DNA of 64,000 bases from assembly GCA_042569905.1 (NCBI GenBank), contig JBHPHA010000001.1, positions 8,515 to 72,514 on the forward strand, in the 5' to 3' direction. Source of the DNA: Patescibacteria group bacterium (lineage in GTDB: Bacteria; Patescibacteriota; Minisyncoccia; Moranbacterales; UBA9337). The position numbers and the translations under genes were made by a program. The notes beneath the pieces are model-generated. The model was not told the DNA's origin and searched no databases. It was given only the letters and a program-made list of their open reading frames with translations. Shown here piece after piece: positions 1,183 through 61,784 of this stretch; position 1 is the first letter of the stretch, and each line of letters begins with the position of its first letter.

Positions 1183-2040
1183 CTATTTACTTTTTGAGGG
1201 AAGAAACATTACATTTTTCATCAGGTAGCCTAGTCCAATTGCAATACTTACAACTATTAACATGACTCTATAAAAATCATCCATTGAACCCTGATAAACA
1301 CCAGAAATATAAATATTCCCCATTAACCCAAAAGAGACTAGTGAAATAGGCACATTAGCAAGCCAACGAAATCGCCTTAAGAGCTCAATAGTATTGTAGC
1401 CATTTCTCATTACTAAAAATGCAAAGTAAGCTATTAACGTAAAGAACTGAATAACTATTGCACCTGGATAATCTGGCAACAACTCTGAAAAATAAATACC
1501 ACCAAAGCAAATAGCTACAAATCCTATCGCGTGATAATTTTTCAGTTTTTCGCTTGAAAAAATAAAAAATGACATACTCCCTACCAAAAGAAAGCCGAAC
1601 ACTATTACCGATAATGCAGACTCATCTACAATATATGATATCTCTTGACCTTCCCTAACAGAAGATAAGATACCTTCATTAAGCGAAACTACCTCAATAA
1701 ACACTTCCTCAGCTACATATGGAATCAGAAAATACTTCCATTCAGTATGTATATTGGAGTCAATTTCTCTGGGTAATACTTCCTTATCTGGATTATTAAA
1801 TAAGAATAATATTTCCGCATCACTTACTTGAATCTTATTAGGATTTTTAATTTCTCCAATATTTCTAGTTTTCACAATTTCGCCCATAGTGACTTCCTGA
1901 ACAATACAATTCCCATTCTCATCGCAAACCACATCCTGCGTCTTTGAAATTTGTTGCTCTGAAGGATTTGTAGCATATCCAAAAGCAAATCCCGCCAAAG
2001 TTAAAACCAACAAAATAACATAAGCAATTATTCTCTTCAT
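1183..2040 (-). CDS. membrane protein, function unknown
   Basis: N-terminal signal/TM and several C-terminal TM helices. Sits between dfx and rbr. Confidence 0.35.
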   Translation of the reverse strand: MKRIIAYVILLVLTLAGFAFGYATNPSEQQISKTQDVVCDENGNCIVQEVTMGEIVKTRNIGEIKNPNKIQVSDAEILFLFNNPDKEVLPREIDSNIHTEWKYFLIPYVAEEVFIEVVSLNEGILSSVREGQEISYIVDESALSVIVFGFLLVGSMSFFIFSSEKLKNYHAIGFVAICFGGIYFSELLPDYPGAIVIQFFTLIAYFAFLVMRNGYNTIELLRRFRWLANVPISLVSFGLMGNIYISGVYQGSMDDFYRVMLIVVSIAIGLGYLMKNVMFLPSKSK

Positions 2041-5919: not shown

Positions 5920-5986
5920 AAACAAAAAACACCTTAGTAAAAAGATGCTTTTGTTTATCTTGTCGGAGCACAGGGATTCGAACCCT
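5920..5986. repeat. direct repeat copy A, overlapping the 3' end of tRNA-Pro
   Basis: See 5770..5836. Includes the tRNA acceptor 3' strand and the T-arm 3' half. Confidence 0.6.
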
Positions 5987-6034
5987 GTCTACATGTACCC
6001 AAAACATGCGTGCTAGCCGTTGACACCATGCTCC
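5962..6034 (-). tRNA. tRNA-Pro (anticodon TGG)
   Basis: Hand-folded: acceptor CGGAGCA/TGCTCCG, anticodon stem CATGT/ACATG, loop TTTGGGT, T-arm CAGGG-TTCGAAT-CCCTG. 73 nt. CCA not encoded. Confidence 0.8.
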
Positions 6035-6282
6035 GTTATTATTTTATATTAACCGCTATCCATCTTCTACCTTTCCCGGTTTTTAATTCTTTTTCAAATT
6101 GCATTGCTTTAGCTCTGGTACTAAATTCCTTTCCATATACCAATCTCCACGGACCCTTTCCTTTTGTATATTTCGATATTCCGTTATTGTGCTGAAATAA
6201 TCGTCGCTCAATGTTATTTGTTTGACCAACATAAGTTTTGTCTTTTTCGTTTTTTAAATATAAACAAAAAACATAATCTTAT

Positions 6283-6474: not shown

Positions 6475-7389
6475 CTAAAAATTCATATTTTTTCGATCTT
6501 TTTCAATTTCCTGATCTATTGTTCTCATTGCATTTATTGCTTCAGATGGCAAAACACCACCTTGCTGAGAATTTATTAATACACCTCCAATACTCTTACC
6601 TAAGCCATAAGTTTTAATATAATTAACGACATTTGGAGATAGTTTACTTCCATACTTAGATAATGCTATATTGGCATCTAAACTACTATTAAGTGACATT
6701 GCGATCATCTTATTTACATTCTCCAATGACATTCCTACACCACCTTCAGCACCTTTTTGCGCCATCTCACTCTCCGAAGGCATTGCATATTTTGACTGCC
6801 CCATCTGCGACATAGAAGAAGACAATGCGTCTCTCAATGCATCTTCCGCTTTATTCCCGGCTTCTGCACTACTAACACCACCCGTAATTGCAGGACCCAC
6901 AATCATCAATAATGATGCCGCCACAACTATTCTTTTTTGACCTTGAAATAAATTTAAAATCTTTCCACCTAATTCTTTTACTACCTCACTCAGCACACCA
7001 GGATCAATCTTAATATTCTCAATATCCATACCTAATTTTTCAATCTCCTCATCGGGAAGACCTTCCAGTTCACTTATAATATTCATTCTTGCCTCCTCAA
7101 TATCAATGCTCTCATATATCTCCATAATCTCACCATCTCCAACACCAAGAAGTCCCTCTAATCTATCTATATCCTTCTCAATCTGAGAAATTTTTTCCAT
7201 AGACTCACCAAAAACCTTTTCATCCTCAACTTCCTTAGCACGCTCAGCTCGCATACTTTCAGCCTCGAGATCCAGAGATTCCTTCTTAATCTCCTCTACT
7301 TTTTCACTATCCACAGAATCTTCCTGCTTTTTTTCAACTGGTGGTTGTTTAAAGAATTCAAACATATTATTAGAAATGATTTTATTCAA
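6475..7389 (-). CDS. acidic coiled-coil protein with one TM segment, unknown function
   Basis: Very E/D-rich N-terminal half, one hydrophobic helix, Ser/Gly-rich C-terminus. Confidence 0.3.
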   Translation of the reverse strand: MNKIISNNMFEFFKQPPVEKKQEDSVDSEKVEEIKKESLDLEAESMRAERAKEVEDEKVFGESMEKISQIEKDIDRLEGLLGVGDGEIMEIYESIDIEEARMNIISELEGLPDEEIEKLGMDIENIKIDPGVLSEVVKELGGKILNLFQGQKRIVVAASLLMIVGPAITGGVSSAEAGNKAEDALRDALSSSMSQMGQSKYAMPSESEMAQKGAEGGVGMSLENVNKMIAMSLNSSLDANIALSKYGSKLSPNVVNYIKTYGLGKSIGGVLINSQQGGVLPSEAINAMRTIDQEIEKDRKNMNF

Positions 7390-10371: not shown

Positions 10372-10482
10372 AAATATCTTTCTGGAAACTTTTCTTATTC
10401 AAAAAACCTGCTATAATAAAACCAGTGTTGCAACATCCAAAAATACAAAGAAAAGCACAAAAATAAAAGATAGATTAAAAAC

Positions 10483-10505
10483 TCTGGCAATTGCCAGAGT
10501 TTTTA
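10483..10505 (+). terminator. Rho-independent terminator
   Basis: ctctggcaa/ttgccagag hairpin followed by TTTTT. Confidence 0.5.
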
Positions 10506-10536
10506 ATTTGCGCTCCTTTTTTACTTCAATAAATGC

Positions 10537-11154
10537 CTAGTTAAAAAATCCTGCTATTTGTCTCACGATTATCATAGAAGCTAAAGCAATAACAATTCCA
10601 ATAATTGCCCACTTTGTCATACCTTTAGCTGTCTCAATCCTACTATCATCACCAGCTGAGAAAAAGTACATTATTCCAGAAGAAACAAGCATAATGATTC
10701 CCAAGATACCCACTACACCAAGAAGGAAATTCAAAAGGTTCAATAATATCTGTGCTAAACTCAATGATTTACCAAATGCATCAGTATCCTGTCCCCATCC
10801 TAAAATATCAGCAATTTCCTTCAAAAAAGAAGGAGCTGCAATTCCAATTGCAAGTCCTACCATTGACGCAACAATCGCCCCCTTTGCAAGAGTCATTCTG
10901 CCCTCATTACCAGCAGAGGTGATATACAAAATTGCCCCAATAACAATGAATATAATAGAAAGAACTACAATAATTCCCTGCAGAGTACTCAGTATTGACC
11001 CCACTAATTCATTAACGGTCTCATATTCTAGAGGATTACAAAATTGCGTATCACCACCACATTCCTTAGCTAATGAAACATTTGATAGACCAAATGTGGC
11101 CATAACAGCAATAAATACGGATAATACTATTTTGCTAAAAAATTTTATTTTCAT
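10537..11154 (-). CDS. T4SS pilin-like (TrbC/VirB2-like) protein, tandem two-domain form
   Basis: Signal peptide, then two repeats of TM-helix - Y.TSAG[ND].......AK - TM-helix. Confidence 0.6.
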   Translation of the reverse strand: MKIKFFSKIVLSVFIAVMATFGLSNVSLAKECGGDTQFCNPLEYETVNELVGSILSTLQGIIVVLSIIFIVIGAILYITSAGNEGRMTLAKGAIVASMVGLAIGIAAPSFLKEIADILGWGQDTDAFGKSLSLAQILLNLLNFLLGVVGILGIIMLVSSGIMYFFSAGDDSRIETAKGMTKWAIIGIVIALASMIIVRQIAGFFN

Positions 11155-11178
11155 TTTTTTGTTATTACATTTTAAAAA

Positions 11179-11628
11179 TTAAAAACCAGCAGAAGCATTC
11201 AAAAGATTATCAATCGCCTGAATAACCACAAATCCGATTAGACCTACCACTACTCCTATAATTGACCATATCATATGCTTTTTCGCTTTTTCCATAGAAG
11301 TATCATCCCCAGCAGCCATAAAGTATTGAAGCCCTGCCAATGCAAAAGACACTACTGCTAAAACTCCGAAAATTCCCAGTATCCATTGCATGAAGTTAAA
11401 AATAATTGTTGTCACTGGATCCTCTCCACCTGGATCTGGAAGCCCTGTCTCAAATGGTATACACACGCCTGAATATTCATCAACCTCTAATCCAGTTGGG
11501 CAAACAATAGCATCAGCAAAATTAGTGCCTCCCAAAAAAATAAAAACTGCCAACATCGCAACTGGCAAATATACTGCTCTTAAAAAAAATTTATTCATAT
11601 TTTTATTGAAAAAATTAATACCACCCAA
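11179..11628 (-). CDS. T4SS pilin-like (TrbC/VirB2-like) protein
   Basis: Signal peptide plus ...WILGIFGVLAVVSFALAGLQYFMAAGDDTSMEKAKK...IQAIDNLLNASAGF. The C-terminus and 3' nucleotide sequence are near-identical to the 11705 paralog. Confidence 0.6.
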   Translation of the reverse strand: MGGINFFNKNMNKFFLRAVYLPVAMLAVFIFLGGTNFADAIVCPTGLEVDEYSGVCIPFETGLPDPGGEDPVTTIIFNFMQWILGIFGVLAVVSFALAGLQYFMAAGDDTSMEKAKKHMIWSIIGVVVGLIGFVVIQAIDNLLNASAGF

Positions 11629-11650
11629 TAATATATTTACATTATACCAT

Positions 11651-11686
11651 AAAAAAACAAACGACCTAAATCGTTTGTTTTTTTAT
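11651..11686. terminator. bidirectional Rho-independent terminator
   Basis: aaacaaacga-cctaaa-tcgtttgttt flanked by an A-run and a T-run. Confidence 0.55.
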
Positions 11687-11704
11687 AATTTAGATCACAT
11701 ATCA

Positions 11705-12076
11705 CTAGAAACCAGCAGAAGCATTCAATAGATTATCAACGGCTTGAATAATCACGAATCCCATCAAAGCAACAATTACTCCAATAATAGACCATATCAT
11801 AGAATTCTTTCCCTTTTCCATCTTACTATCATCACCTGCTGCTGTTAGATACCAAATACCTGCGATAGCAAAACCAATTATACCAAACACGCCTACTAGT
11901 CCCAATATCCAGTTCATTACATTCGTCACAATTTCTGATACTCCTCCAGATGGCAATCCTGCGCCACTAGCTGCGCTCTTTCCAGTGCCCCATTGTGCAA
12001 AAGACACACTAGGAGAAAGCAGGATAGCTCCTAGAATACCGAAAAACAGACCTTTAAATTTATTTTTTATTTTCAT
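11705..12076 (-). CDS. T4SS pilin-like (TrbC/VirB2-like) protein
   Basis: Start trimmed to the internal ATG at 12074-12076 (MKIKNKFKG...) to remove overlap with the upstream paralog. Same two-helix AAGDD...KxK core. Confidence 0.6.
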   Translation of the reverse strand: MKIKNKFKGLFFGILGAILLSPSVSFAQWGTGKSAASGAGLPSGGVSEIVTNVMNWILGLVGVFGIIGFAIAGIWYLTAAGDDSKMEKGKNSMIWSIIGVIVALMGFVIIQAVDNLLNASAGF

Positions 12077-12092
12077 ATTTTTTTTACTTTGT

Positions 12093-12446
12093 CTAAAAAT
12101 CTGCAGCCTCTCCTCCGAGCATTGAATTAACCGCTTGAATAATAACAACACCTAACAACGCAACGACAACACCTACAATAGACCATACCATCGCTCGCTT
12201 AGCTGTATCGATTCTAGTTTCATCACCAGCAGCTGTTAGATACAAAATACCCGCGATAGCAAAACCAATAACACCAAAAAGTCCGACTAATCCCAGTAGC
12301 CACTGCATAATCTGCTCAATAATTCCAAAAATACTTCCCTTTGGTAAATCAACACCAGACGGCGCATCATAAGCTGACGCCATCACTGGAGCAACTATTA
12401 CTAAAGAAATTAATCCGTAAGCAATTTTTTTAATTTTTGTTTTCAT
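12093..12446 (-). CDS. T4SS pilin-like (TrbC/VirB2-like) protein
   Basis: Start at the ATG 12444-12446 with an AAGGAGGTG SD immediately upstream. Core ...LYLTAAGDETRIDTAKRAMVWSIVGVVVAL. Confidence 0.6.
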   Translation of the reverse strand: MKTKIKKIAYGLISLVIVAPVMASAYDAPSGVDLPKGSIFGIIEQIMQWLLGLVGLFGVIGFAIAGILYLTAAGDETRIDTAKRAMVWSIVGVVVALLGVVIIQAVNSMLGGEAADF

Positions 12447-12495
12447 ATAAACACCTCCTTTCATTATTTGTTTTTATTTTTTGTTTTTTCTTCCG

Positions 12496-12777
12496 TTATA
12501 CTAAAAATTTAATAATTTGACGTACGATTATCATAGACCCCAACACAACAGCAATTCCTACAACAATATACACAGTCATTTTTTTCGCCGCGTCTGTTTT
12601 TCTCTCATCTCCTGCAGCAAAAAAATACAAGACTCCCGTAACAACTAATGCTATTATACCAAGAATTCCAGAAACTCGCAACAAAAAATTAAGCACATTT
12701 AGAAAAACTTCAGCAAAACTAGGAGCATCCTCAATAACACCCGCATGTGCAATATTTATTAAATTAAATAAATCCAT
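12496..12777 (-). CDS. T4SS pilin-like (TrbC/VirB2-like) protein, short form
   Basis: 93 aa with a single two-helix unit (FFAAGDERKTDAAKK). Confidence 0.5.
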   Translation of the reverse strand: MDLFNLINIAHAGVIEDAPSFAEVFLNVLNFLLRVSGILGIIALVVTGVLYFFAAGDERKTDAAKKMTVYIVVGIAVVLGSMIIVRQIIKFLV

Positions 12778-12814
12778 CCTTTTAAAAAATATGTTTAAAA
12801 AATTTCCCTACTTT

Positions 12815-13927
12815 CTACAATTTACATTCAAATTTACTCCAACTTGTCGCATTCACTCCTAGTCCCTCTCTCGTTGCAATCAAATTCATAGCAATATTTA
12901 CTATTAACCAAGCACCTAATACTACAGCAAAACCAGTCAATGCCCTTTTCAATACTCCTTTAGCGCTTTCCATAGACTGCTGATTTCCAGCAGAAGTAAT
13001 GTACATTATTCCAGCAACAACAATTACCAGGAACGCGACTGATACCAAAATATTTCTCCCCCAAGCCAATATGTTATTTATACCAACAAATAAGTGACAT
13101 AATGTACAGGGAGTCCCTTCGTTACCGCAAGGAACTAATCCTCCAGAACCACTTGCCATATCTGTTGGTGCATATGTTCCAAAAGGATCTTTAAATCTAC
13201 TTTTAGCATCGTCTGTGGTATATTCCTTACCAGTGTTGGCGTTTTTCCATGAGTCCGCTTCAGGATTATAATTATAATCCGAGTTGACCATTTCTCCAGA
13301 AAACAAAACCTCATCAAATGTATCTTCGTTCCAACCACCCGCCTGTTCGGTTGTAAATTCGTTATATTCATCCATCCCTCTATCACCATTTTCATGTTCC
13401 CAGTTAACATTGGAATCATCATGATCATAACCAGCATGAATTAATTTATCAGATCTCGTAAACCCATTATATTCATCGTCTGATAAATTAGCTATATCAT
13501 TATCGCTCAAAGCCATAGTATCGTAACCATTTGAAAATCTCTCATCTTCATATGTCCAACCATGCTCACCAACTAACTCCCCTGTTCTCATATATCCGTC
13601 AAAATCTTTATCAGATGCACCAAGTAACTGATCGTATGTGCGATTATAACCCGAGGCACCATCAATATAATAGCTATCGCCCTCAGAAACCCACCCGTAA
13701 TGAGTAACAACATTTTTCCTAAATTCAGATTCACTCATTTGATTAACAAACTTTACGTTCATAATCACACCTGTTTCACTATGAACCCACCTATTGTCCC
13801 TTAATTCATACCCCATCTTTTCCATTCCAGCATTACGATCCACCCCCGCACTAACAACATAGCTAGAACATATCAGCAACATGAATAAAAAAATGAAACT
13901 TACTTTTCTTCCTAAACTAAAAGACAT
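12815..13927 (-). CDS. T4SS pilin-like protein with a long acidic D/N/E/Y-rich N-terminal extension
   Basis: Signal peptide, then ~230 aa of low-complexity acidic region, a Cys cluster (CGNEGTPCTLC), then the pilin core YITSAGNQQSMESAKG. Confidence 0.5.
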   Translation of the reverse strand: MSFSLGRKVSFIFLFMLLICSSYVVSAGVDRNAGMEKMGYELRDNRWVHSETGVIMNVKFVNQMSESEFRKNVVTHYGWVSEGDSYYIDGASGYNRTYDQLLGASDKDFDGYMRTGELVGEHGWTYEDERFSNGYDTMALSDNDIANLSDDEYNGFTRSDKLIHAGYDHDDSNVNWEHENGDRGMDEYNEFTTEQAGGWNEDTFDEVLFSGEMVNSDYNYNPEADSWKNANTGKEYTTDDAKSRFKDPFGTYAPTDMASGSGGLVPCGNEGTPCTLCHLFVGINNILAWGRNILVSVAFLVIVVAGIMYITSAGNQQSMESAKGVLKRALTGFAVVLGAWLIVNIAMNLIATREGLGVNATSWSKFECKL

Positions 13928-13932
13928 ATATT

Positions 13933-15333
13933 TTACTTTAATAATCTATTTATTCTATTTCGAAGCACATCAACACTCTGTCCAACACTAATATTTCCCC
14001 TATTAATATCCCCTATCACACTAGCCCAAACTCCTTCGATTAATTCAGGATTCATTCTTATCCAACTCTTAGCTATTAAATTGCCCTCCGCAAATGAACC
14101 CAAGAATGGATCACTTTTTTGCTCCTCAATTAAATCTCTCCTTGCTGCAGGCTTGTTTGTGTTTTCAAGATAAGCTTTGGCTGGGTCAATTTCAACCTTA
14201 AACGGCTTCACTGCACCAGTAACAGGACTTATGATATTAAAGCTTCCGTTGTTTCTAGTAGTTAAGAATTTTAAAAACTGCCAAGCCTCATGTACCCTAG
14301 TTTCATTACTAACAAGTTTATTTTTGATTATTTTATTCTTACTTACCGCAAAACCCCAGTAATTAGCAATATTGACGGGATTATTCACATTCAACTGAGG
14401 AACTGGCGCAATAGCAAAATTGAGCTTAGAATTCTTACTCTTAATTGTTTCATAGTGCCATGAAAAATTAATCATCATAGCTAAATCTCCTTCATAGAAC
14501 TCATCCAGTGAATAATGCGTAGACTCATCAATACTCCATGAATAGGTCGGGGTACTTGGATTAGCAAATCTTGTGTAAAAATCTATAGCGTTAGATCCAC
14601 TAGATACAGCAGATCCATCAGACTGCGCTGTTCTTGTTAGATTAATCATCTGATTTTCTCTAGTAGGCATATCTACTCCATTTTGAAAAAGTAGCAAGTT
14701 GATAATATCGGTTGAGCGATTGATATTATTTACAGAACCCATAGCTGCTCCTGATTGAACAATATCACCAAACTCATTTATCCTAGTAGTTTTTCTTGCC
14801 ACATCAATAAACTCATCCCAATCCTTAGGAGGGGAGGTTATTCCATTTGCATTAAATATATCTTTGTTATAATACAGAGCTAGTGAATCTGCACTAAGGG
14901 GAGTTGCCAAAACTTTACGTTCGGCGCTCAAGAAATCGATTGCGACTGCATCAACAAAATTCTCTCTAAACTGTTTCTCAGCTAGAACACTATCTGGCGC
15001 AACTGATACCTTATTTTCAAACTCAGCTATCCAAGAATTATTAATCATAAATACATCCGGACCACTACCGGCAGCCAATGCATCGATTAATTCTTTTTTA
15101 TATTCAGCGGTAGAAAACTTCCTGTATCGTATATCACCTACAAAAGGATTTGTTTCCCTATAAGCTCTAAATATATCGGAATAGTCAACTGTTTCATCAA
15201 AAACACCCCAAACCTCCAAATCCACCTTAACAGTTGGTGTAGTATCCTTAAATATACACCCAGAAAAATTAAAAGTCATCAAAAAAACAAGACTGAGTAG
15301 GGATATTTTTTTTATTTTAGTGCTAAATTTCAT
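13933..15333 (-). CDS. extracellular solute-binding lipoprotein (ABC transporter, family 1-like)
   Basis: Lipobox FSGC at the N-terminus. Approximately 466 aa with overall SBP-like composition. Confidence 0.5.
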   Translation of the reverse strand: MKFSTKIKKISLLSLVFLMTFNFSGCIFKDTTPTVKVDLEVWGVFDETVDYSDIFRAYRETNPFVGDIRYRKFSTAEYKKELIDALAAGSGPDVFMINNSWIAEFENKVSVAPDSVLAEKQFRENFVDAVAIDFLSAERKVLATPLSADSLALYYNKDIFNANGITSPPKDWDEFIDVARKTTRINEFGDIVQSGAAMGSVNNINRSTDIINLLLFQNGVDMPTRENQMINLTRTAQSDGSAVSSGSNAIDFYTRFANPSTPTYSWSIDESTHYSLDEFYEGDLAMMINFSWHYETIKSKNSKLNFAIAPVPQLNVNNPVNIANYWGFAVSKNKIIKNKLVSNETRVHEAWQFLKFLTTRNNGSFNIISPVTGAVKPFKVEIDPAKAYLENTNKPAARRDLIEEQKSDPFLGSFAEGNLIAKSWIRMNPELIEGVWASVIGDINRGNISVGQSVDVLRNRINRLLK

Positions 15334-37774: not shown

Positions 37775-38207
37775 TTCAATCCCCCATGCATATAAAATTC
37801 GGTATTTTTTAAATAAAAGAACTTCTTCAATTCAACTAGACAGTATAGCTTATTCCTAACAAAAAGTCAAGATGCGTAACAAAAAAATCGCCTCAAATTT
37901 GCAGAGCAAGCTAGATTAATGTTTTGAAATAAGGAGAGAGAATAAGCTTCAAAAATGAAACTCATAAAATATTTCAGAACTCTAGTTTTTACCCTGCAAA
38001 TTCAAGACGACTTAACAGACTCTCATTATTTATTTTTCAATAATAAAGAGATTTTTGATTGCAAATTATTTTTCACAATTCAATCTATCTTTTGATTATT
38101 CTTTTTCATCTCAAATCTGATTTCCAAACTATAAACCTTCGAAAAATTCAAAAGTTTAATTGTTTGGCGGAGCGCTGATACGATGATCAACACTCTGCAC
38201 ATTTTTC

Positions 38208-38714
38208 TTATCTCACATACCATACCATGCGAGTTTTTTCCGATTGATTTAATAATGGATTCAATTGCACAAGAGCCATATCCTTAAAAAACATACACCG
38301 CGGTACAACTTCTACTTCAACTCCGCGACTATCTCTTCCGAAGAATCTCCACCCGTCGCCCTTCAGCTGTTCCCTAAGGCGATTCGATTTTATTTCAATG
38401 ACCTCCTCCCGTATAACCTTAGTCACACGATAGGAAAATTGTCTTGAGATCGACCTTTTGGCGATCAGACTCTTAAAGCACTCTACCTCCCAAAAGCCAC
38501 CATCTTTCAAAAACAACTCAGTGAAGATCCGTCTGCCCCCCTTCTTCTTTCTTTTACTTATCTTCATCCTCCGTCCCGGCGCCTGAGGAATTCGCATCCA
38601 ATACCAATGATGACTATCACTGAATCCTGTTATAGCATCCAGTGCTGCATCCTCAACCAATTCTCTTTTTATTTCAACCAATTCTTTCACTATCCCATTG
38701 GCCATTTGGGGCAT
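38208..38714 (-). CDS. basic hypothetical protein (island gene A)
   Basis: 168 aa with KISKRKKKGGRR. GGAGGG SD and the promoter module shared with the 40308 gene. GC-rich relative to the genome. Confidence 0.35.
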   Translation of the reverse strand: MPQMANGIVKELVEIKRELVEDAALDAITGFSDSHHWYWMRIPQAPGRRMKISKRKKKGGRRIFTELFLKDGGFWEVECFKSLIAKRSISRQFSYRVTKVIREEVIEIKSNRLREQLKGDGWRFFGRDSRGVEVEVVPRCMFFKDMALVQLNPLLNQSEKTRMVWYVR

Positions 38715-38819
38715 AATTTTCCCTCCGCTTCACTTAAGAAGTTTTGTGTTTTTGTTGTATAAATAAATGAACTTTTTCTCTTCATCTCAAACCTCATTCA
38801 CATAAGATTTGAGAAAAGG

Positions 38820-38852
38820 GATGGAACAGACAAGCGTATTGCCTGTTCCATC
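38820..38852 (-). terminator. hairpin/terminator module, copy 1
   Basis: gatggaacag...ctgttccatc 10-bp stem. CCCUUUUCUC follows on the minus strand. Confidence 0.5.
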
Positions 38853-38902
38853 AGCTGTGAGCGAGTTTTATTATAGGCACTCTCTCGAAAAACCTTTATT
38901 TA

Positions 38903-39808
38903 CTAACCGAGAACTTCTTCAATTGTCTGGATTTTTTCACCAGTCAAAACGATCCGACTGGGATTTCCAGATCCGAGACCGAAAGCCTGGAGCAAATCCA
39001 AATTCCGGTCGCTCGTCCCGATCAATGCCAGCGGCTGACCGTCATCGGCAGCCGTGGTCAATATAACAATGGTCGGGAATTTTTTGTACCCCCGTATCAT
39101 CACTTCTGTGACATCAATAGAGCCCTGTCCACCCAAAATCGATACAGAACCAACTCCAGAAACCAACTCTCTTAAGCCGGCAATAGCTGTATCAGTTGCC
39201 TCCTCTGGATATGCTTTCGCCCGCTCACTTACCAGTCTCGATTCAATTCCAGTAATCAACTCTCTAATAAATAGCATTTGCGTTTCAATAACCGCTCTAC
39301 TGTCACCGCTTTGCATCATAGCCAATGAAGCCTTGAAAGCGTGATTATAACGCCTACTCAATGGCGTCGGTCTATACTGCGTTGGATTATCAGCTGCATT
39401 AGCTGCCATGACCCAGTTTCCTGGGATGATGAAACCATGCCGGAGCATCAGCTTCGGACAACTCGGAGCCTTGGGATCATAAATAAACCGTTCCCCTAAA
39501 ACCTCCTGCAACTGCTCCCCTCCCAAATGGTGATCCACCCAAAGTAAAATACTCTCCTCGTTGCGCCGAGCCCAATCCAGAGTTGCCTCCGGATTACGAC
39601 CATCCACGGCCATATCTAGAATCACCGTCAGAGCCGTAAGATCTGTAAGTTTGTGCAGCAAAAACGGCTGCGTTACTGTGATGTTTCCATCAGCTCCACT
39701 CTTTCGCATGACGGCGGCGGCAATCGTGCCGTCGCAATCGCCATGCGTAATTATATCAACGGTACGGATCTCAGAAACAGCAGTAATAAATTTAGCGATA
39801 TTCAACAT
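38903..39808 (-). CDS. DHH-family phosphoesterase (NrnA/RecJ-like catalytic core)
   Basis: Motif I HGDCDG, motif III WVDHH, Gly-rich DHHA1-like C-terminus (ILGGQGS). 301 aa at approximately 55-60% GC. Confidence 0.6.
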   Translation of the reverse strand: MLNIAKFITAVSEIRTVDIITHGDCDGTIAAAVMRKSGADGNITVTQPFLLHKLTDLTALTVILDMAVDGRNPEATLDWARRNEESILLWVDHHLGGEQLQEVLGERFIYDPKAPSCPKLMLRHGFIIPGNWVMAANAADNPTQYRPTPLSRRYNHAFKASLAMMQSGDSRAVIETQMLFIRELITGIESRLVSERAKAYPEEATDTAIAGLRELVSGVGSVSILGGQGSIDVTEVMIRGYKKFPTIVILTTAADDGQPLALIGTSDRNLDLLQAFGLGSGNPSRIVLTGEKIQTIEEVLG

Positions 39809-40051
39809 GACTTTCTCCTCAGAAATTTTAGCCCAGAATAGGCTTGTGATCCACTCAGCTTGAGCATTTTAATTGACCAACATAGACTAGCTTCCTAGCC
39901 ACCCTAAGTCAGTCAATTAAAATAAAGAAGAAAATATATGCTTTTCTTGAATAAATATTTTTCTAAATGAACTTTTCTCTTCATCTCAAACTTCATTTGA
40001 TATTCGAACTACAGATACAATACGAATTTACAAATAAAGATTGAGAAAAGG

Positions 40052-40079
40052 GATGGAGCTGGAAATTGCCTGCTCCATC
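40052..40079 (-). terminator. hairpin/terminator module, copy 2
   Basis: gatggagctgg...cctgctccatc. Pairs preserved by compensatory changes relative to copy 1. Confidence 0.5.
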
Positions 40080-40307
40080 ATTCATAAAAAAACTAGGACT
40101 GATATGCCTCCCAACACTGAGAGCATATTGCTGGAAATTGTTTTGTTGGTAGTGTTTTGCATGTGCACTTGTAGCACATCCTCTCTTTATCATCACTCTT
40201 TTTTTTCATCTCTTTTTTGACATCGATACTAGACATGTGGCACTCCTATTTTAGCTTTTGAATAAATTATTGATAAAGAGTTTTATTTAGGTACTCTCTC
40301 GGAAAAC

Positions 40308-40685
40308 CTACCCGCAGAAGTCATCAGTAGCCGAACATGAAGTGTTCGGTTGTCCAGACCCACACTGGCAACTTGTCCCGAAAAATCGGGACTCTACTTC
40401 CTCGCCCTGGAGATCAGGGGGACATGAGACGCATTCGCGCTTTCGAGCCTCCTCTCGAGCCTCGCGACCCGAAGGAAACCACTGATCTTCATAAGACTGA
40501 GTGCCACAATTCTGACACCACGTCCGTGCGCGAAACTCGCGCAAGTGGCAGTCGCACACTACTCGAGGACCGCCGCACTCGACGCAAACCTCACTGAAAA
40601 TTGGCTTACCATCCAAACGAGCAAGCTCGCTATTGTGGTAAGAGTTCCATTTTCCATTAATCTTTACAAAAAATTTCTTTGCCAT
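40308..40685 (-). CDS. Cys-rich hypothetical protein (island gene C)
   Basis: 125 aa. CVECGG...CDCH...CQNCG, CVSC, CQCGSG. Same GGAGGG SD/promoter module as gene A. Confidence 0.35.
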   Translation of the reverse strand: MAKKFFVKINGKWNSYHNSELARLDGKPIFSEVCVECGGPRVVCDCHLREFRARTWCQNCGTQSYEDQWFPSGREAREEARKRECVSCPPDLQGEEVESRFFGTSCQCGSGQPNTSCSATDDFCG

Positions 40686-41344
40686 AATTTTCCCTCCGCT
40701 TCACTTAAGAAGTTTTGTGTTTTTGTTGTATAAATAAATGAACTTTTTTTATTACTCTCTCTTGAGAAAGAGAATTGTGAAGTAGATTTTTGAGATTAAG
40801 TCATCAGGCCAATATATATTTTTGCCTTGAGTTAATTTCAAAGATTCTCTCTCCTTCACAATTCTTTTTCCCAATCTCCTAGTCCTATTTGCATATTCGT
40901 AATAGATTCGTAATTTGTATACAAAAAAAGACAATTATTGGAATATTATGGTTCTATCGTGGAGACTAGTTTTAAAAACTAATCTCACATGTGGGTGTAT
41001 AGAGACATAATAAACCAATAATTGTCCTCTTGGTGTATATGTATTGTTGTCTAAATGCCTCTCCAAACATTTTTCTAACTTATTCAGTTGTAAGGTACTT
41101 TCTTAACTTGATAGTCCAGTATAGCATATTATAATCATTTTGTCAATAGCTGTATCTTGTTTTCATTTCAACTCCCTTCCTAGATTGATATTACATCGTA
41201 GCATATTTTAACTATTTTGTCAATACTCAGCTTCAACCTATTTCCACTTTTACATTCTCCATTCTCCATCTCAAATCTAATTCAGCTTGCATATTTTAAA
41301 AATATGCTATACTTTAGATATCTAATACTTTTTTATTTTAAAAA

Positions 41345-45444: not shown

Positions 45445-45492
45445 CAAAAAAACCGCAAGGTTTCATTATGAAACCTTGCGGTATATTTTTTT
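45445..45492. terminator. bidirectional Rho-independent terminator
   Basis: 13-bp stem accgcaaggtttc/gaaaccttgcggt with flanking A- and T-runs. Confidence 0.65.
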
Positions 45493-46180
45493 ATTTAAAC
45501 ATTGTGATTGCGACTATTGCCTTTATGGCACTTGTTGACACATGACAACCTTTACTAAAGTCCTTTACTTTACTCATTAAATCAAGGTCTTTCTTTTCAA
45601 TTGCTATTGAAAGAATTTCCTCTAACACTTTTATCCTAAAAGCTCTAAGATCATAATCATGATATAGTCCCCATAACAATGGGATACATTTTCTCGAAAC
45701 AGCCTCATCGAATAGGTCATCGTAATATTTAGTAATTTCCGCATAAGCTAGATCATAAATAGTCACACTATGCGGCACCACTGAGCAAATTCTTTTCATC
45801 AGAAAAATATCTTTTTCTTCACTTTCATAGAGCTTCTTTCCGCCCCATTCTTCAATAAGCTCGTTAACCCTATCTCGAATATCTGCAAAATTGCATAAGT
45901 TAATTTCACTAACTAACAAGACTAACTCGATATTAACACTACTGCCAGAAGTACATTCTTCCAATCTCTTCCATAGGTAACCTTCAATAGCCTTCTCAAA
46001 CTTTGATGCAAAGTGACTGAAAGGATCCAAAACATCATACACTTCACGCATTAGCTTAATATCATCATTCTCAACAGCCTTTTTAAAATCCTCTTCGAGC
46101 CACTGATCGAATATCCCCCCTAACTTTTCATCACCCTCAGCAACAGTCTCTCCCTCAATAAACCCAAGCATCTCACGCAC
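45491..46180 (-). CDS. hypothetical protein
   Basis: ORF only. An in-frame TGA at 46184-46186 separates it from a 46-codon upstream ORF that starts at 46324. Confidence 0.3.
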   Translation of the reverse strand: MREMLGFIEGETVAEGDEKLGGIFDQWLEEDFKKAVENDDIKLMREVYDVLDPFSHFASKFEKAIEGYLWKRLEECTSGSSVNIELVLLVSEINLCNFADIRDRVNELIEEWGGKKLYESEEKDIFLMKRICSVVPHSVTIYDLAYAEITKYYDDLFDEAVSRKCIPLLWGLYHDYDLRAFRIKVLEEILSIAIEKKDLDLMSKVKDFSKGCHVSTSAIKAIVAITMFK

Positions 46181-59226: not shown

Positions 59227-59811
59227 CTACTCCACATTCTTTCTTCTTAAAAATTCTGAGGCCATCTCTAAATCCTTTTCAGATCCCAGTACGTGAATAT
59301 TATCTTCCTCAAAAATAACAATCTCCGAATAGTCATATTCCCCCTCACCTTTTTCCCTAGCAGCATACACCGCATCAACACTCTCTCTCCCTAACTCCTC
59401 ATAATCACCTTTTTTAAACAAGACAATCTCCAGAGCGTCTAATTCTTTTCCTTTGGAAACATTAATTTTTACTGGGTGTATGCTTTCTCCGTATATTGAA
59501 TTTGGGACATCTGACATATAAAAACCATATTGATCAGATTGAATTCCCTCATTATAATTAACAACATTAGGTTTTTCTATTTTCTCAGCACCAGACGTAT
59601 GGTACAAAACATCTTGCACCTTACTATCTGGAAAAATACCATCCAAATACTCCTGAAATAATTCCCGATCACCCCCAAACAACTCCTCCAGTTCAGGCTT
59701 AAACTGAAATGCAAAATCTATATTCTCTATTTTTTCTGGCGCAAGAACGCTTTCAGTCTTGTTCACTTCTTCCTTTGTTGCATCTAACGGTTGCGGAAAT
59801 TTTTCACTCAT
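59227..59811 (-). CDS. acidic hypothetical protein
   Basis: ORF only. Confidence 0.3.
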   Translation of the reverse strand: MSEKFPQPLDATKEEVNKTESVLAPEKIENIDFAFQFKPELEELFGGDRELFQEYLDGIFPDSKVQDVLYHTSGAEKIEKPNVVNYNEGIQSDQYGFYMSDVPNSIYGESIHPVKINVSKGKELDALEIVLFKKGDYEELGRESVDAVYAAREKGEGEYDYSEIVIFEEDNIHVLGSEKDLEMASEFLRRKNVE

Positions 59812-59911: not shown

Positions 59912-60157
59912 TTACATACCCATCATTGTCTTAGTGAAATTCAAAATAATCGTTAGTATAAGAGAACTAGCAATAATGATAAAAGGAAGAAGTACAAATA
60001 TAATTCCTTTTTTCTTTAGTGCTTTTTTTCTGTCAACTTCTTGATCATTCGCACTTGCTGCTTTTATTAAAAAAACAATTCCAATAGGAATAAATATAAA
60101 AATCCCTACGACTCCAATTATTCCCGCTAAACCAAGTAACCATCCTATAAGTGCCAT
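59912..60157 (-). CDS. small 2-TM membrane protein
   Basis: 81 aa. Two hydrophobic helices separated by a KKALKKKG loop. Confidence 0.35.
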   Translation of the reverse strand: MALIGWLLGLAGIIGVVGIFIFIPIGIVFLIKAASANDQEVDRKKALKKKGIIFVLLPFIIIASSLILTIILNFTKTMMGM

Positions 60158-60485: not shown

Positions 60486-61784
60486 TTAGATTTCAAATGC
60501 ACCATAGCATCCCAAACCATAAGCCACACCAGTAAAAGCATTTTTGTGAACAACCTCCTTTCCAGGAAACATCCTAGTAAATACACTTTTAACACACGGG
60601 ATATGTGACGACCCGCCAGTTAGAACTACAGTATCAATCTGATCCCTTTTGACTCCAGCACTCAGAATCACTTCCTCTACACAAGACCTCACACTATCAA
60701 TCTTCGAAGCGATTATTGCCTCAAATTCGCTTCTAGACATCGCCTCATCTATTACCAAATTCCTTTCTTTGAAAATAACTCTAGTATTTTCCAACATAGA
60801 AAGATCTTGCTTTGCAGTCTCAATTGACCTAAACAGCATATATCCATAGTTATCATCTATCAAATTCTCCAGATTCTCAATCAACTGCTTTTCATGATCG
60901 TCTGCCAAGTATTTGCACCGCTTAATCTGATCCATTATTTTAGGAGTTCTCAGTCTCGGTATTTGATGCCATTCACAAAGCTTCTTATAGAGCATAGGCG
61001 ACATATCTACTCTTTCATCTGTTTTCCTTATTATAGAATCCATTGTCCTGAGCCTTGTAAATCTACCAAAATACCTAGTTAATTTCTCCCACATAATCAA
61101 AGAATCAAAATCATCTCCGCCTATGTGCACTCCAGAAACTGCCAAGATACTCGGCTCATTGGAAATCACCACTCTTTCATTATTCATTCCAACTCTTGCA
61201 ATTGCAAAATCAGATGTTCCTCCGCCTAAATCACCTACGAGAATATTTTTTTCTCCTTTTAAATCACTCGATTTTTCATATGCGACAGCAGCTGCAATAG
61301 GTTCCTCCTGAAGATAAATCTCTTTAAATCCTGCTATCTTAGCAGCAGATATCAATCTCTCCTCTGCTAATTTATCAGCTTTAGGATCTTCAGAAAAAAC
61401 AACAGGCCTACCTATGACAACCCTATCAACCCTTCTTCCAACATCTAATTCTCCTCGAGACTTTATCTCTCTGAAAATAATCGCAACCACTTCGTCCAGC
61501 TTATAAGCTTTTGACCCAAACGATGTACTACTGAAAGTTTTATCTGGAAGAAAACTTTTTATTGACTGAACATATCTCCCGAAAGCATCATTTTCGATAT
61601 ATGCATCAACTGCCTCCTGACCAAAATAAAATCTTCTGTCATCATCATCAAAATAAATCACCGTTTTCATAGTAGGGCCACTAATATTAGCCTTGTCTAT
61701 ATCGATAACCCTCACAATTCCATTAATATTCACAGATAACACAGAATTGGATGTTCCAAAATCTAAACCAAAAAAATCACTCAT
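60486..61784 (-). CDS. Hsp70-family ATPase, nucleotide-binding domain only (YegD-like)
   Basis: GLDFGTSNS phosphate-1, DLGGGTSD phosphate-2, LTGGSSHIP adenosine motif. 432 aa with no substrate-binding domain. Confidence 0.7.
   Translation of the reverse strand: MSDFFGLDFGTSNSVLSVNINGIVRVIDIDKANISGPTMKTVIYFDDDDRRFYFGQEAVDAYIENDAFGRYVQSIKSFLPDKTFSSTSFGSKAYKLDEVVAIIFREIKSRGELDVGRRVDRVVIGRPVVFSEDPKADKLAEERLISAAKIAGFKEIYLQEEPIAAAVAYEKSSDLKGEKNILVGDLGGGTSDFAIARVGMNNERVVISNEPSILAVSGVHIGGDDFDSLIMWEKLTRYFGRFTRLRTMDSIIRKTDERVDMSPMLYKKLCEWHQIPRLRTPKIMDQIKRCKYLADDHEKQLIENLENLIDDNYGYMLFRSIETAKQDLSMLENTRVIFKERNLVIDEAMSRSEFEAIIASKIDSVRSCVEEVILSAGVKRDQIDTVVLTGGSSHIPCVKSVFTRMFPGKEVVHKNAFTGVAYGLGCYGAFEI

What the first reader, a model, noticed from the sequence alone, without database searches (positions are those of the whole stretch)
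10537..13927. Tandem array of six TrbC/VirB2-like (T4SS pilin-like) paralogs with domain duplication and a giant acidic-tail member
All six consecutive minus-strand genes end with the same unit: TM helix, then Y.(T/A)(S/A)AG(D/N)....(E/D).AK, then TM helix.

- Gene 10537..11154 contains the unit twice.
- Gene 12815..13927 fuses it to a ~230-aa D/N/E/Y-rich low-complexity region and a Cys cluster.
- Genes 11179 and 11705 are near-identical at the nucleotide level at their 3' ends (ttaaaaaccagcagaagcattcaa.agattatcaa...), indicating very recent duplication or gene conversion.

No VirB4, VirB6, VirD4 or pilus-assembly ATPase lies in the window, so the function of the array (adhesion, competence, surface coat) is open.

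Such arrays are characteristic of CPR/Patescibacteria genomes, as far as I recall, but are functionally uncharacterised.
Basis: partly seen in the sequence, partly recalled or inferred. Interest (0 to 1): 0.6.

Follow-up and report, generated by a model that had tools for sequence, protein, structure and literature searches.

The report
Conserved VirB2-like pilin gene array
Six neighbouring genes in this ultra-small (Moranbacteria/CPR) bacterium all encode type IV secretion pilin-like membrane hairpins; such arrays are already described in this group, so this is a well-preserved example of a known but functionally unsolved feature.

Summary
Six co-oriented minus-strand genes (10537-13927) each pass Pfam's threshold for T4SS_pilin (PF18895). 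g1 carries the domain twice. g6 fuses it to a 235-aa acidic N-terminal domain and a Cys-flanked module. The window holds no T4SS machinery.

The kind is already published. VirB2-like pilin arrays of 2-11 genes occur in 383 Patescibacteria assemblies (PMC12102498), and a six-pilin array is essential in Southlakia epibionticum (PMC10633639). NCBI already calls g6 "pilin".

- g2 and g3 are only 69% identical in DNA.
- Every paralogue has a positional orthologue in other Moranbacteria.
- All are under purifying selection.

What I add:
- The array has a conserved ordered architecture in about 50 Moranbacteria species. The order is SBP_bac_1, then a Cys-flanked "carrier" pilin, a ~90-aa short-leader pilin, several ~120-aa pilins, and a terminal double pilin.
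- No VirB4 lies within ±10 kb in any of them, although one syntenic relative encodes VirB4/VirB3/TrsD/VirB6 elsewhere.
- g1 is a fusion of two old pilin types, not an internal duplication.
- g6's acidic domain is an orphan, absent from the sister genome. Relatives carry other passengers, such as a lytic transglycosylase.

Most likely these are subunits of a T4SS-assembled surface filament. That function is inferred, not shown.

The parts
12815..13927 (-). g6: 370-aa 'carrier' pilin. It consists of a signal peptide (aa 1-27), an orphan acidic domain (aa 28-262), a Cys cluster (C267, C274, C277), a TM-loop-TM pilin hairpin (aa ~276-353) and a C-terminal W..F.C (C368).
   Evidence: PF18895 at 33.5 bits against a cut-off of 26.6. 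Topology. Cys positions and composition. AF2 helices 276-311/316-353 at pLDDT ~82. NCBI names it 'pilin'.
13142..13846 (-). g6 passenger domain (aa 28-262). It is acidic (net -30), and two ~35-aa beta units (aa 36-70 and 214-248) flank a low-confidence core.
   Evidence: The only hit among 1.84 billion representative proteins is itself. It is absent from the sister genome's 145-aa orthologue. Internal repeat. pLDDT profile.
12496..12777 (-). g5: 93-aa pilin with only a 12-aa leader (short-leader '90-aa' class).
   Evidence: PF18895 at 27.1 bits and PF04956 TrbC at 29.1 bits against a cut-off of 27.9. Orthologues of 90-92 aa occupy the same array position. The class groups with g1 domain b.
12093..12446 (-). 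g4: ~117-aa pilin (signal peptide plus hairpin). The likely start is M7 of the ORF, which extends to 12464.
   Evidence: PF18895 at 40.0 bits. AAAGGAGG precedes M7. Orthologues are 66-76% identical.
11705..12076 (-). g3: ~123-aa pilin (signal peptide plus hairpin). The likely start is M26. The longer ORF to 12151 would overlap g4.
   Evidence: PF18895 at 48.8 bits. NF045849 at 40.2 bits. Start-codon analysis. Orthologues are 53-64% identical.
11179..11598 (-). g2: ~139-aa pilin with an N-terminal Cys-Cys loop (C..SGVC) and an LPDPGG motif before the hairpin. The likely start is M11 of the ORF, which extends to 11628.
   Evidence: PF18895 at 47.4 bits. NF045849 at 44.9 bits. The Cys loop is conserved in orthologues. 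Orthologues are 42-52% identical.
10537..11154 (-). g1: 205-aa double pilin. It has a signal peptide and two hairpins (domain a about 10801-11016, domain b about 10543-10758). It is the terminal gene of the array.
   Evidence: PF18895 at 62.5 bits in 2 stretches. AF2 gives four long helices at pLDDT 74.8. There are 557 homologues, many full-length at 50-71% identity. It is the last gene in 48 of 49 arrays. It is a fusion of two classes.
10471..10510 (.). Bidirectional terminator-like hairpin between g1 and the convergent radical-SAM gene. It marks the probable operon end.
   Evidence: An 18-bp stem with T-runs on both strands.
13933..15333 (-). SBP_bac_1 solute-binding lipoprotein-like gene 5 nt upstream of g6. 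It is the conserved upstream neighbour and is probably co-transcribed. A functional link is not established.
   Evidence: Pfam result. It holds the same position in L001-L007. The SBP_bac_1 cluster has 49 members among the fetched loci.

Best explanation
This is a chromosomal operon of six specialised VirB2-like (Pfam T4SS_pilin) pilin paralogues. It belongs to the kind already described in Patescibacteria.

Proposed mechanism:
1. Each product is inserted into the cytoplasmic membrane as a helical hairpin, N-terminus and C-terminus outside and short loop inside. Insertion is Sec-dependent, using cleavable signal peptides, for five of the six genes.
2. The subunits are then used by a VirB4/VirB3/TrsD/VirB6-type type IV secretion system encoded elsewhere in the genome. 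That system builds a pilus-like or conduit-like surface structure for interaction with a host cell.
3. The members are not interchangeable variants but distinct parts.
- g2, g3 and g4 are the shaft-type subunits.
- g6 (the Cys-flanked 'carrier' hairpin) and g5 (the short-leader hairpin) form a pair. Their fused counterpart is the terminal double pilin g1.
- The carrier hairpin displays a lineage-specific passenger domain on the outside. Here that domain is an orphan acidic one. In relatives it is a lytic transglycosylase or other domains.

Shown: family membership, topology pattern, operon-like layout, conserved order, orthology, purifying selection and absence of linked machinery.
Inferred: assembly by a T4SS, filament formation and the role of each member.
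For: Family and topology:
- All six pass the PF18895 gathering score. g5 also passes PF04956 TrbC/VirB2.
- g2 and g3 reach the NCBIfam cut-off for the Mbov_0395 pilin-like conjugal transfer protein.
- Five of six have a signal-peptide-like N-terminus followed by two hydrophobic helices. AF2 gives long helical hairpins.

Operon layout:
- Intergenic gaps are 5-106 nt, and one strong terminator follows g1.

Conservation:
- The same gene order occurs in relatives. Positional orthologues are 42-76% identical.
- Across 49 species-level loci the double pilin is last in 48, and 41 arrays have at least 4 genes.
- dN/dS is 0.09-0.32 against the sister genome.
- Paralogue classes are monophyletic across species. 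g1 domain b groups with the g5 class and domain a groups next to the g6 class. This gives a gene-fusion (Rosetta-stone) argument for a g6+g5 pair.

Link to a T4SS:
- The syntenic relative GCA_000990515.1 encodes VirB6, VirB3, TrsD and VirB4 elsewhere (genes 1211-1215 against about 399; PMC12102498 Table S3).
- Pilin arrays are reported in 383 Patescibacteria assemblies. The six-pilin array of S. epibionticum is essential (PMC10633639; PMC12857230).

Passenger swapping:
- A relative carries an SLT domain at 41.5 bits on a carrier pilin.
- The sister genome's carrier has no passenger.
- The passenger here is an orphan.
Against: - No T4SS machinery lies in the 64-kb window. No VirB4-like ATPase lies within ±10 kb of the array in any of about 60 related loci. 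Whether this genome has VirB4 at all could not be checked.
- No pilus of this kind has been seen in any Patescibacterium, and monoderm T4SSs normally lack pilins (PMC12857230).
- A family profile finds no solved conjugative pilin by sequence.
- hhalign against solved VirB2 is weak: probability 6%, covering only the first helix.
- Foldseek gives only generic helical bundles.
- A covalent double pilin, and passengers of 235-700 aa, are hard to fit into a canonical VirB2-type helical filament.
- Signal peptides and topology rest on hydropathy heuristics, not a dedicated predictor.
Confidence: 0.6

Rival explanations
1. The hairpins are membrane-resident modules that work independently of any T4SS. 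In this view they anchor or scaffold surface proteins, such as cell-wall hydrolases and binding domains, or they form a small membrane complex, possibly with the adjacent solute-binding protein. They never polymerise into a filament.
For: - The array is never next to VirB4 in about 60 Moranbacteria loci, but it is almost always directly downstream of an SBP_bac_1 gene.
- The Cys-flanked hairpin is fused to large extracellular domains on either side, which is how a membrane anchor behaves.
- The double pilin resembles a four-helix membrane protein.
- No detectable similarity to solved pilins.
Against: - Family-level homology to T4SS pilins, including a TrbC/VirB2 hit above threshold.
- In other Patescibacteria classes the same family sits inside T4SS clusters (1135 assemblies) and is essential together with the T4SS.
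- A syntenic relative has the T4SS core genes elsewhere.
- Five to nine distinct, conserved paralogues are more than simple anchoring needs.
Confidence: 0.25
2. The array is a set of alternative major pilins used for antigenic or host-range variation. This was proposed for Bartonella and Anaplasma VirB2 paralogues and suggested for Patescibacteria in PMC12102498. One variant or a few would be used at a time.
For: - The number of mid-size (~120-aa) members varies between genomes, from 2 to 5, and there are lineage-specific duplicates such as the two 122-aa genes in L006.
- The pilins evolve 2-4 times faster at non-synonymous sites than the flanking housekeeping genes.
- The literature proposes this.
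Against: - Each paralogue class is conserved as a positional orthologue across species and is monophyletic.
- The classes differ in architecture: short leader, Cys loop, carrier, double pilin.
- dN/dS is well below 1.
- There is no sign of recent gene conversion; g2 and g3 are 69% identical in DNA.
- No invertible promoters or repeats suggesting switching were seen. Promoter-like sites are at chance level.
Confidence: 0.1
3. The array is a remnant of an integrated conjugative element whose transfer genes have been lost.
For: - Weak family links to the mycoplasma ICE pilin-like protein NF045849.
- The Patescibacteria T4SS is thought to derive from monoderm conjugation systems.
Against: - The context is housekeeping genes with conserved synteny in at least 49 species.
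- No integrase, relaxase or tRNA-flanked boundary is present. The only tRNA lies 4.5 kb away, at 5962-6035.
- GC content matches the surroundings.
- Selection is purifying.
Confidence: 0.03

Closest known systems
VirB2-like pilin arrays of Patescibacteria (Quinonero-Coronel et al. 2025, PMC12102498; the six-pilin essential array of Southlakia epibionticum ML1, Wang et al. 2023, PMC10633639)
   Same: - Same Pfam families (PF18895, PF04956).
- Tandem array within the reported range of 2-11 genes, here six as in S. epibionticum.
- Sequence-divergent paralogues.
- Chromosomal location with no relaxase.
   Different: - In S. epibionticum the array lies inside the T4SS cluster. Here, and in about 60 Moranbacteria loci, no VirB4 lies within ±10 kb and the conserved neighbour is an SBP_bac_1 gene.
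- Pairwise identity reaches 64% (g2/g3) against a reported maximum of 54%.
- The fixed order, the terminal double pilin and the Cys-flanked carrier pilin with swappable passengers are not mentioned in the papers I could read.
- The paper's Table S3, as held, lists only one VirB2 hit for a relative that has eight such genes.
Canonical conjugative pilins TrbC/VirB2/TraA of diderm T4SSs (for example the Agrobacterium T-pilus VirB2, PDB 8cue/8exh)
   Same: - A leader peptide followed by two hydrophobic helices joined by a short loop.
- Small size.
- g5 passes the PF04956 threshold.
- hhalign aligns the first helix in register with VirB2.
   Different: - Sequence similarity is marginal (hhalign probability 6%), and a profile search finds no solved pilin.
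- The loop is acidic with one invariant Lys, instead of the VirB2 loop.
- There are many paralogues rather than one major pilin.
- Fused double and domain-carrying forms occur.
- The host is a monoderm.
- The genes are not linked to VirB4/VirB6.
- No evidence for cyclisation, lipid binding or filament formation.
Mbov_0395/MMCAP2_0565 family pilin-like conjugal transfer protein of mycoplasma ICEs (NCBIfam NF045849)
   Same: A small two-helix pilin-like protein in a wall-less or monoderm lineage. g2 (44.9 bits) and g3 (40.2 bits) reach the 40-bit cut-off.
   Different: - The other four genes score below the cut-off.
- The context here is not an ICE.
- Here there is an array of six, not a single gene.
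Tandem VirB2 paralogues of Bartonella and Anaplasma T4SSs
   Same: Several VirB2-like genes in tandem in an organism that depends on a host.
   Different: Those paralogues are thought to serve antigenic variation. Here the paralogues are structurally distinct classes, each conserved across species, which points to division of labour.

Membership tests
Pfam PF18895 T4SS_pilin | HMM score at or above the gathering cut-off (26.6 bits) | tested here: met
   g1 62.5 (two stretches), g2 47.4, g3 48.8, g4 40.0, g5 27.1, g6 33.5 bits.
Pfam PF18895 T4SS_pilin | A unit of about 70 aa made of two hydrophobic helices joined by a short polar loop | tested here: met
   Hydropathy segments, AF2 helical hairpins and the alignment of the seven units.
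TrbC/VirB2 conjugative pilins (PF04956) | HMM score at or above the gathering cut-off (27.9 bits) | tested here: inconclusive
   Only g5 passes (29.1 bits). The other five give no PF04956 hit at E<=1. Many g1 homologues carry precomputed PF04956 hits.
TrbC/VirB2 conjugative pilins (PF04956) | Detectable similarity to a solved conjugative pilin | tested here: inconclusive
TrbC/VirB2 conjugative pilins (PF04956) | Cleavable leader peptide preceding the mature two-helix pilin | tested here: inconclusive
   Signal-peptide-like N-termini ending in AxA-type sites occur in g1, g2, g3, g4 and g6. g5 has only a 12-aa leader. These are heuristics only; no dedicated predictor was available.
TrbC/VirB2 conjugative pilins (PF04956) | Encoded with the T4SS assembly genes (VirB4, VirB3, VirB6 and others) | tested here: not met
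   None in the 64-kb window. No VirB4-like ATPase lies within ±10 kb in about 60 related loci. A syntenic relative has them at a distant locus.
TrbC/VirB2 conjugative pilins (PF04956) | Polymerises, with phospholipid, into an extracellular pilus | not testable with these tools
   Needs microscopy or biochemistry. It has not been shown for any Patescibacterium (PMC12857230).
Patescibacteria VirB2-like pilin arrays (PMC12102498) | Two to eleven pilin genes (PF18895/PF04956) in tandem or separated by one gene | tested here: met
   Six adjacent genes.
Patescibacteria VirB2-like pilin arrays (PMC12102498) | Organism is a Patescibacterium | tested here: met
   NCBI source 'Patescibacteria group bacterium'. 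The closest loci are Candidatus Moranbacteria/Moraniibacteriota.
Patescibacteria VirB2-like pilin arrays (PMC12102498) | Genome also encodes VirB4 | not testable with these tools
   Only this window is available, and look-ups for the source contig failed. The relative GCA_000990515.1 does encode VirB4.
NCBIfam NF045849 Mbov_0395 pilin-like conjugal transfer protein | Score at or above 40 bits, and an ICE context | tested here: not met
   Only g2 (44.9) and g3 (40.2) reach the score. The context is housekeeping genes, not an ICE.

The most novel reading that the evidence does not exclude
The Moranbacteria-type array may encode an ordered, heteromeric surface apparatus rather than a set of pilin variants.
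- A Cys-flanked 'carrier' hairpin (g6 class) and a short-leader hairpin (g5 class) would form a two-hairpin unit. That unit exists as a single fused polypeptide in the terminal double pilin (g1).
- The carrier would be a general display module that swaps passenger domains between lineages. Passengers seen are a lytic transglycosylase, an unidentified HANGYKVDI...DHWD domain, an orphan acidic domain here, and none in the sister genome. They would bind or breach the host envelope.
- The apparatus would be assembled by a T4SS that is genetically unlinked from it. This would be the first defined subunit logic for the putative monoderm T4SS pilus of CPR bacteria.
Probability: 0.2. Interest if true: 0.65.

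Novelty: new member of a known kind. Interest (0 to 1): 0.33.

Why it matters
CPR/Patescibacteria make up a large share of bacterial diversity and appear to live off host cells. Their T4SS, with its unusual pilin arrays, is essential in the one species tested, yet its role is unknown.

This locus does not open a new category. It does give a clean, widely conserved example outside Saccharibacteria, and it shows three things:
- The paralogues are distinct, individually conserved parts.
- One is a fusion of two others' types.
- One is a carrier for interchangeable surface domains.

These points constrain models towards a heteromeric assembly rather than antigenic variation. They also give concrete targets for structure prediction of complexes, cryo-ET and proteomics.

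Tried and rejected
1. Fetching the rest of the 77-kb source contig to look for T4SS genes beyond the window. Four exact-protein look-ups found nothing on record.
3. A sequence-profile test against the PDB found no pilin. hhalign against VirB2 was weak.
4. I guessed that the recurrent 'SHANGYKVDI...DHWD' passenger domain of relatives is an M15/VanY-type peptidase. Pfam, NCBIfam and a PDB profile search gave no support, so the domain stays unidentified.
5. I looked for repeats in g6's acidic domain resembling cell-wall-binding repeats. Only two ~35-aa units (aa 36-70 and 214-248) are related, and there is no Pfam hit at E<=1.
6. A seventh pilin-like ORF at 59912-60157 scored E about 1e-4 against my HMMs but has no T4SS_pilin hit in Pfam. 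I treat it as an unrelated small two-TM protein.
7. The two unknown genes convergent to the array in many relatives (about 430 aa polytopic and about 220 aa) have no counterpart in the window.
8. Mobile-element origin is rejected on synteny and composition.
9. Promoter-like sites are at chance level (23 found against 20.6 expected), so no internal promoters are claimed.

Full report
**What is there**

The region 10537-13927 holds six co-oriented minus-strand ORFs. I call them g1 to g6:
- g1: 10537-11154
- g2: 11179-11628
- g3: 11705-12151
- g4: 12093-12464
- g5: 12496-12777
- g6: 12815-13927

Start-codon context suggests shorter true products for three of them. g2 probably starts at M11 (11598). 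g3 probably starts at M26 (12076), which removes an overlap with g4. g4 probably starts at M7 (12446), preceded by AAAGGAGG. With these starts the intergenic gaps are 16-106 nt. Only 5 nt separate g6 from the upstream SBP_bac_1 gene (13933-15333). A strong bidirectional terminator-like hairpin (10471-10510) follows g1. The layout is operon-like. That is inference from sequence, since promoter-like sites are at chance level.

**Family assignment**

- All six proteins score above Pfam's gathering cut-off for PF18895 'T4SS_pilin', at 27.1-62.5 bits against 26.6.
- g1 has two matched stretches.
- g5 also passes PF04956 'TrbC/VIRB2 pilin', at 29.1 bits against 27.9.
- In NCBIfam, g2 and g3 reach the cut-off of NF045849, the mycoplasma-ICE 'pilin-like conjugal transfer protein'.
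- NCBI's own annotation of the identical protein calls g6 'pilin [Patescibacteria group bacterium]'.
- An HMM of the seven units recovers exactly these six ORFs (E 1e-29 to 1e-59) from the six-frame translation of the window. The next hit is at E 1e-4. The repetition is therefore real and specific.

**Topology**

- Hydropathy shows a signal-peptide-like N-terminus in g1, g2, g3, g4 and g6.
- g5 has only a 12-aa leader, and so do its 90-92-aa orthologues.
- Each unit is a hydrophobic helix, then a loop of consensus AAGD..(M/I)E.AK, then a second hydrophobic helix.
- The termini are acidic and the loops are neutral to positive, which fits an N-out/C-out hairpin (inference).
- AlphaFold2 gives four long helices for g1 (47-79, 84-118, 133-165, 170-204; mean pLDDT 74.8). 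For g6 it gives a confident hairpin at 276-311/316-353.

- The exact motif as written fits 2 of 7 units. A relaxed version fits all 7 and nothing else in the window.
- g2 and g3 are 64% identical in protein but only 165/240 (69%) in DNA over the domain, with 22 synonymous codon differences. Only the last 30 nt match 27/30, and they encode the shared DNLLNASAGF tail. This is not a recent duplication.
- The acidic region of g6 is N-terminal, lying between the signal peptide and the pilin module. It has net charge -30 and is not compositionally simple (entropy 4.0 bits).
- AF2 predicts two small, confident beta units (aa 36-70 and 214-248). These are related to each other and flank a low-confidence core.
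- Cys267/274/277 precede the hairpin and Cys368 follows it. All would be extracellular, so disulfide bonding is plausible (inference).

**Context in the window**

I scanned essentially every ORF of 120 aa or more with Pfam. The window is ordinary chromosome. It encodes PolA, ValRS, RNase J, PGI, FemAB, RuvA, a sigma-70 factor, Fpg, TsaD/TsaE, ThiI, AcrB/HlyD-type transporter parts and two solute-binding proteins. There is one tRNA-Pro. I found no VirB4, VirB3/PrgI, TrsD, VirB6, VirD4, VirB11 or type IV pilus ATPase. A few ORFs have no family hit (1183-2040, 6475-7389, 38208-38714, 38903-39808, 40308-40685, 45491-46180, 59227-59811). Only 1183-2040 is polytopic, and it lies 8 kb from the array.

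**Relatives and conservation**

- Homologues of g6 match only its last ~110 aa. This is the Cys-flanked module GLVPCG...C.LCHLF.GI.NI..WGRNIL...GGIMYI.SAGN..MME.AK...W..F.C, at 48-59% identity.
- Loci from Candidatus Moranbacteria genomes show the same gene order as the window. That order is SBP_bac_5, PGI, RNase J, methyltransferase, SBP_bac_1, then one or two long Cys-flanked pilins, a ~90-aa pilin, three to five ~110-135-aa pilins, and a ~205-aa double pilin.
- Each window gene has a positional orthologue there. Identities are g1 48-54% over full length, g4 66-67%, g3 53-54%, g2 42-48% and g5 42-49%.
- The closest genome (GCA_042569265.1, locus L006) shares flanks on both sides and has seven pilin genes.
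- Against L006, dN/dS is 0.09-0.32 for the pilins and 0.06-0.11 for the flanking genes. dS is saturated, so these ratios are rough. Pilin dN is 2-4 times higher. Selection is purifying, with faster protein evolution.
- A scan of one genome per species found the double pilin in 61 loci, nearly all labelled Moranbacteria/Moraniibacteriota.
- Among 49 loci with enough upstream sequence, the double pilin is the last array gene in 48. Forty-one arrays have at least 4 genes (mode 5-6). Thirty-five contain an 84-107-aa member. Thirty-six begin with a member of at least 140 aa.
- SBP_bac_1 is the recurrent upstream neighbour: its cluster has 49 members among the fetched loci.
- Among large ORFs within ±10 kb, every cluster containing a Walker A motif proved on Pfam to be IF-2, ComM-like Mg chelatase, an aminoacyl-tRNA synthetase, RNase J, NusA or, in two loci, T2SSE ATPases. 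One 493-aa ORF had no family. None is VirB4-like.

**Relationships among the paralogues**

At domain level the classes are each monophyletic across species. The classes are carrier C, short-leader S90, the g4, g3 and g2 types, and double-pilin domains a and b. The paralogues therefore predate the divergence of these genomes.
- g1's domain b groups with the S90 (g5) class, at 45% mean identity. Its identity to domain a is only 28%.
- Domain a is sister to the carrier (g6) class.
- So g1 is an old fusion of two different pilin types. It mirrors the adjacent g6-g5 gene pair at the other end of the array, and it is not an internal duplication.
- By the usual gene-fusion argument, this suggests that g6-type and g5-type hairpins act as a pair (inference).
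- Lineage-specific duplications do occur. Examples are two carriers in L001 and L002, and two g3-type genes in L006.

**The carrier module and its passengers**

- In most homologues the Cys-flanked hairpin follows the signal peptide directly and is followed by a large extracellular C-terminal domain.
- One such protein in GCA_000990515.1 carries a lytic transglycosylase domain (PF01464 SLT, 41.5 bits).
- Several carry a conserved HANGYKVDI...DHWD domain that I could not identify.
- Only g6 and one other protein (P0007) carry the extra domain on the N-terminal side.
- The sister genome's orthologue is just 145 aa, a signal peptide plus the module. It is about 75% identical to g6's module.
- g6's 235-aa domain has no homologue among 1.84 billion representative proteins.
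- The module is therefore stable while its passenger is exchanged or lost between close lineages.

**What is already known**

- Quinonero-Coronel et al. 2025 (PMC12102498) searched 3,035 Patescibacteria genomes with PF04956 and PF18895. They report VirB2-like pilins in 1,948 VirB4-containing assemblies, near virB4 in 1,135 of them.
- They also report 441 arrays of 2-11 pilin genes in 383 assemblies, with 25% mean and 54% maximum identity. They suggest the arrays help adaptation to different hosts.
- Wang et al. 2023 (PMC10633639) found a series of predicted pilins inside the essential T4SS cluster of Southlakia epibionticum.
- A 2025 review (PMC12857230) describes these as six structurally conserved, sequence-divergent VirB2-like pilins. 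It regards a pilus in a monoderm as an open possibility.
- The role of the T4SS is called 'completely unknown' (PMC11665869).
- In the 2025 paper's Table S3, the syntenic relative GCA_000990515.1 has VirB6, VirB3, TrsD and VirB4 at genes 1211-1215 and a single listed VirB2 at gene 399. The machinery therefore exists elsewhere in that genome.
- The same table suggests the remote eight-gene array is under-reported (inference). The Pfam neighbourhood analysis covered only ±20 genes around virB4.
- Those papers, as far as I could read them, do not mention double pilins or pilin-SLT fusions.

**Independent tests of the VirB2 relationship**

These tests were weak.
- A family profile found no solved pilin in the PDB.
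- hhalign against the T-pilus VirB2 sequence aligned only the first helix, at probability 6%. I had checked that sequence as identical to PDB 8cue/8exh.
- Foldseek gave generic helical bundles.

The link to canonical pilins therefore rests on the Pfam models and the shared architecture.

**Interpretation**

The most likely reading (confidence about 0.6) is an operon of specialised VirB2-like subunits. These are inserted as membrane hairpins and used by a T4SS encoded elsewhere to build a surface filament or conduit. g2-g4 would be shaft-type subunits. g6+g5 and the fused g1 would be special two-hairpin units. g6 would display a lineage-specific domain.

The main rival (about 0.25) is that these are T4SS-independent membrane anchors or scaffolds, possibly tied to the adjacent solute-binding protein. 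Constant separation from VirB4 and the behaviour of the carrier module favour this view. Antigenic or host-range variation (about 0.1) fits the variable copy number of mid-size members. It does not fit the conserved, architecturally distinct classes. An ICE remnant is effectively excluded.

**Verdict**

It belongs to a published kind and is already annotated as pilin. The claim of recent duplication is wrong.

My added observations are of moderate specialist interest and are testable. They are the conserved order, the unlinked location, the fusion origin of the double pilin and the swappable passengers on a Cys-flanked carrier. Interest is 0.33. Novelty is 'new member of a known kind'.

Noticed in passing
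window 59912-60157 (-): An 81-aa ORF with two hydrophobic helices and a charged loop (MALIGWLLGLAGIIGVVG...). It scores E about 1e-4 against my pilin HMMs but has no T4SS_pilin hit in Pfam. It lies downstream of an HSP70/MreB-like ATPase gene (60486-61784). It is probably an unrelated small membrane protein.
   Followed up: partly
window 38000-40700: GC content rises to 0.42 against about 0.35 elsewhere. Three minus-strand ORFs there have no Pfam family (38208-38714, 38903-39808, and 40308-40685, the last Cys-rich). This may be a foreign or fast-evolving island.
   Followed up: no
L002 11114-12409 (GCA_000990515.1 relative): A Cys-flanked pilin module is fused to an SLT lytic transglycosylase domain (PF01464, 41.5 bits). 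This is a VirB2-like/VirB1-like fusion. The 2025 survey, which concluded that most genomes with VirB2 lack VirB1, does not mention it.
   Followed up: partly
P0002, P0003, P0004, P0008, P0014, P0016 and P0017 (C-terminal ~140 aa): A recurrent passenger domain has invariant residues in motifs GGSE...H..G..VDI...DG..Y...G..Y..E..H(W/Y)(D/H). It gave no Pfam, NCBIfam or PDB sequence match. It is an unidentified extracellular domain family attached to carrier pilins.
   Followed up: partly
L001 15462-17375, L002 15408-17365, L004 13546-15607, and many of L008-L068 just downstream of the double pilin: Two convergent genes without Pfam hits follow the array in many Moranbacteria. One is a ~400-480-aa protein with an N-terminal multi-TM region and a C-terminal soluble domain. 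The other is a ~200-250-aa protein. Both are absent from the window and from its sister genome, where an HD-domain or radical-SAM block sits instead.
   Followed up: partly
window 13933-15333 (-) and the equivalent gene in 49 related loci: An orphan SBP_bac_1 solute-binding lipoprotein-like gene has no adjacent ABC permease or ATPase. It is the near-universal upstream neighbour of the pilin array, and here it lies only 5 nt from g6. Whether this is functional coupling or just conserved synteny is unknown.
   Followed up: partly
L011, L012, L016, L017, L019 and others; L065: Many genome records carrying this Moranbacteria-type locus are titled 'uncultured Bdellovibrionales bacterium', and one is 'Chlorobaculum sp. 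24CR'. These are probably taxonomic mislabels or contaminant contigs.
   Followed up: no
PMC12102498 Table S3, rows for GCA_000990515.1: The published table, as held, lists one VirB2 hit (gene 399) for a genome whose array has eight PF18895 genes (L003). Arrays far from virB4 may therefore be under-counted in the published figure of 441 arrays.
   Followed up: partly
window 1-64000: GC skew is strongly negative (-0.2 to -0.4) wherever genes are on the minus strand. It is near zero at 50-58 kb, where genes switch to the plus strand. The skew therefore tracks the coding strand, and no replication origin or terminus signal is evident.
   Followed up: no
window 6475-7389 (-) and 1183-2040 (-): Two unannotated envelope-type proteins. 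One is a 304-aa acidic, coiled-coil-like protein with a single TM segment and a Ser/Gly-rich C-terminal part. The other is a 285-aa protein with a signal/TM segment, a ~110-aa outside domain and four TM segments. Neither has a Pfam hit.
   Followed up: partly
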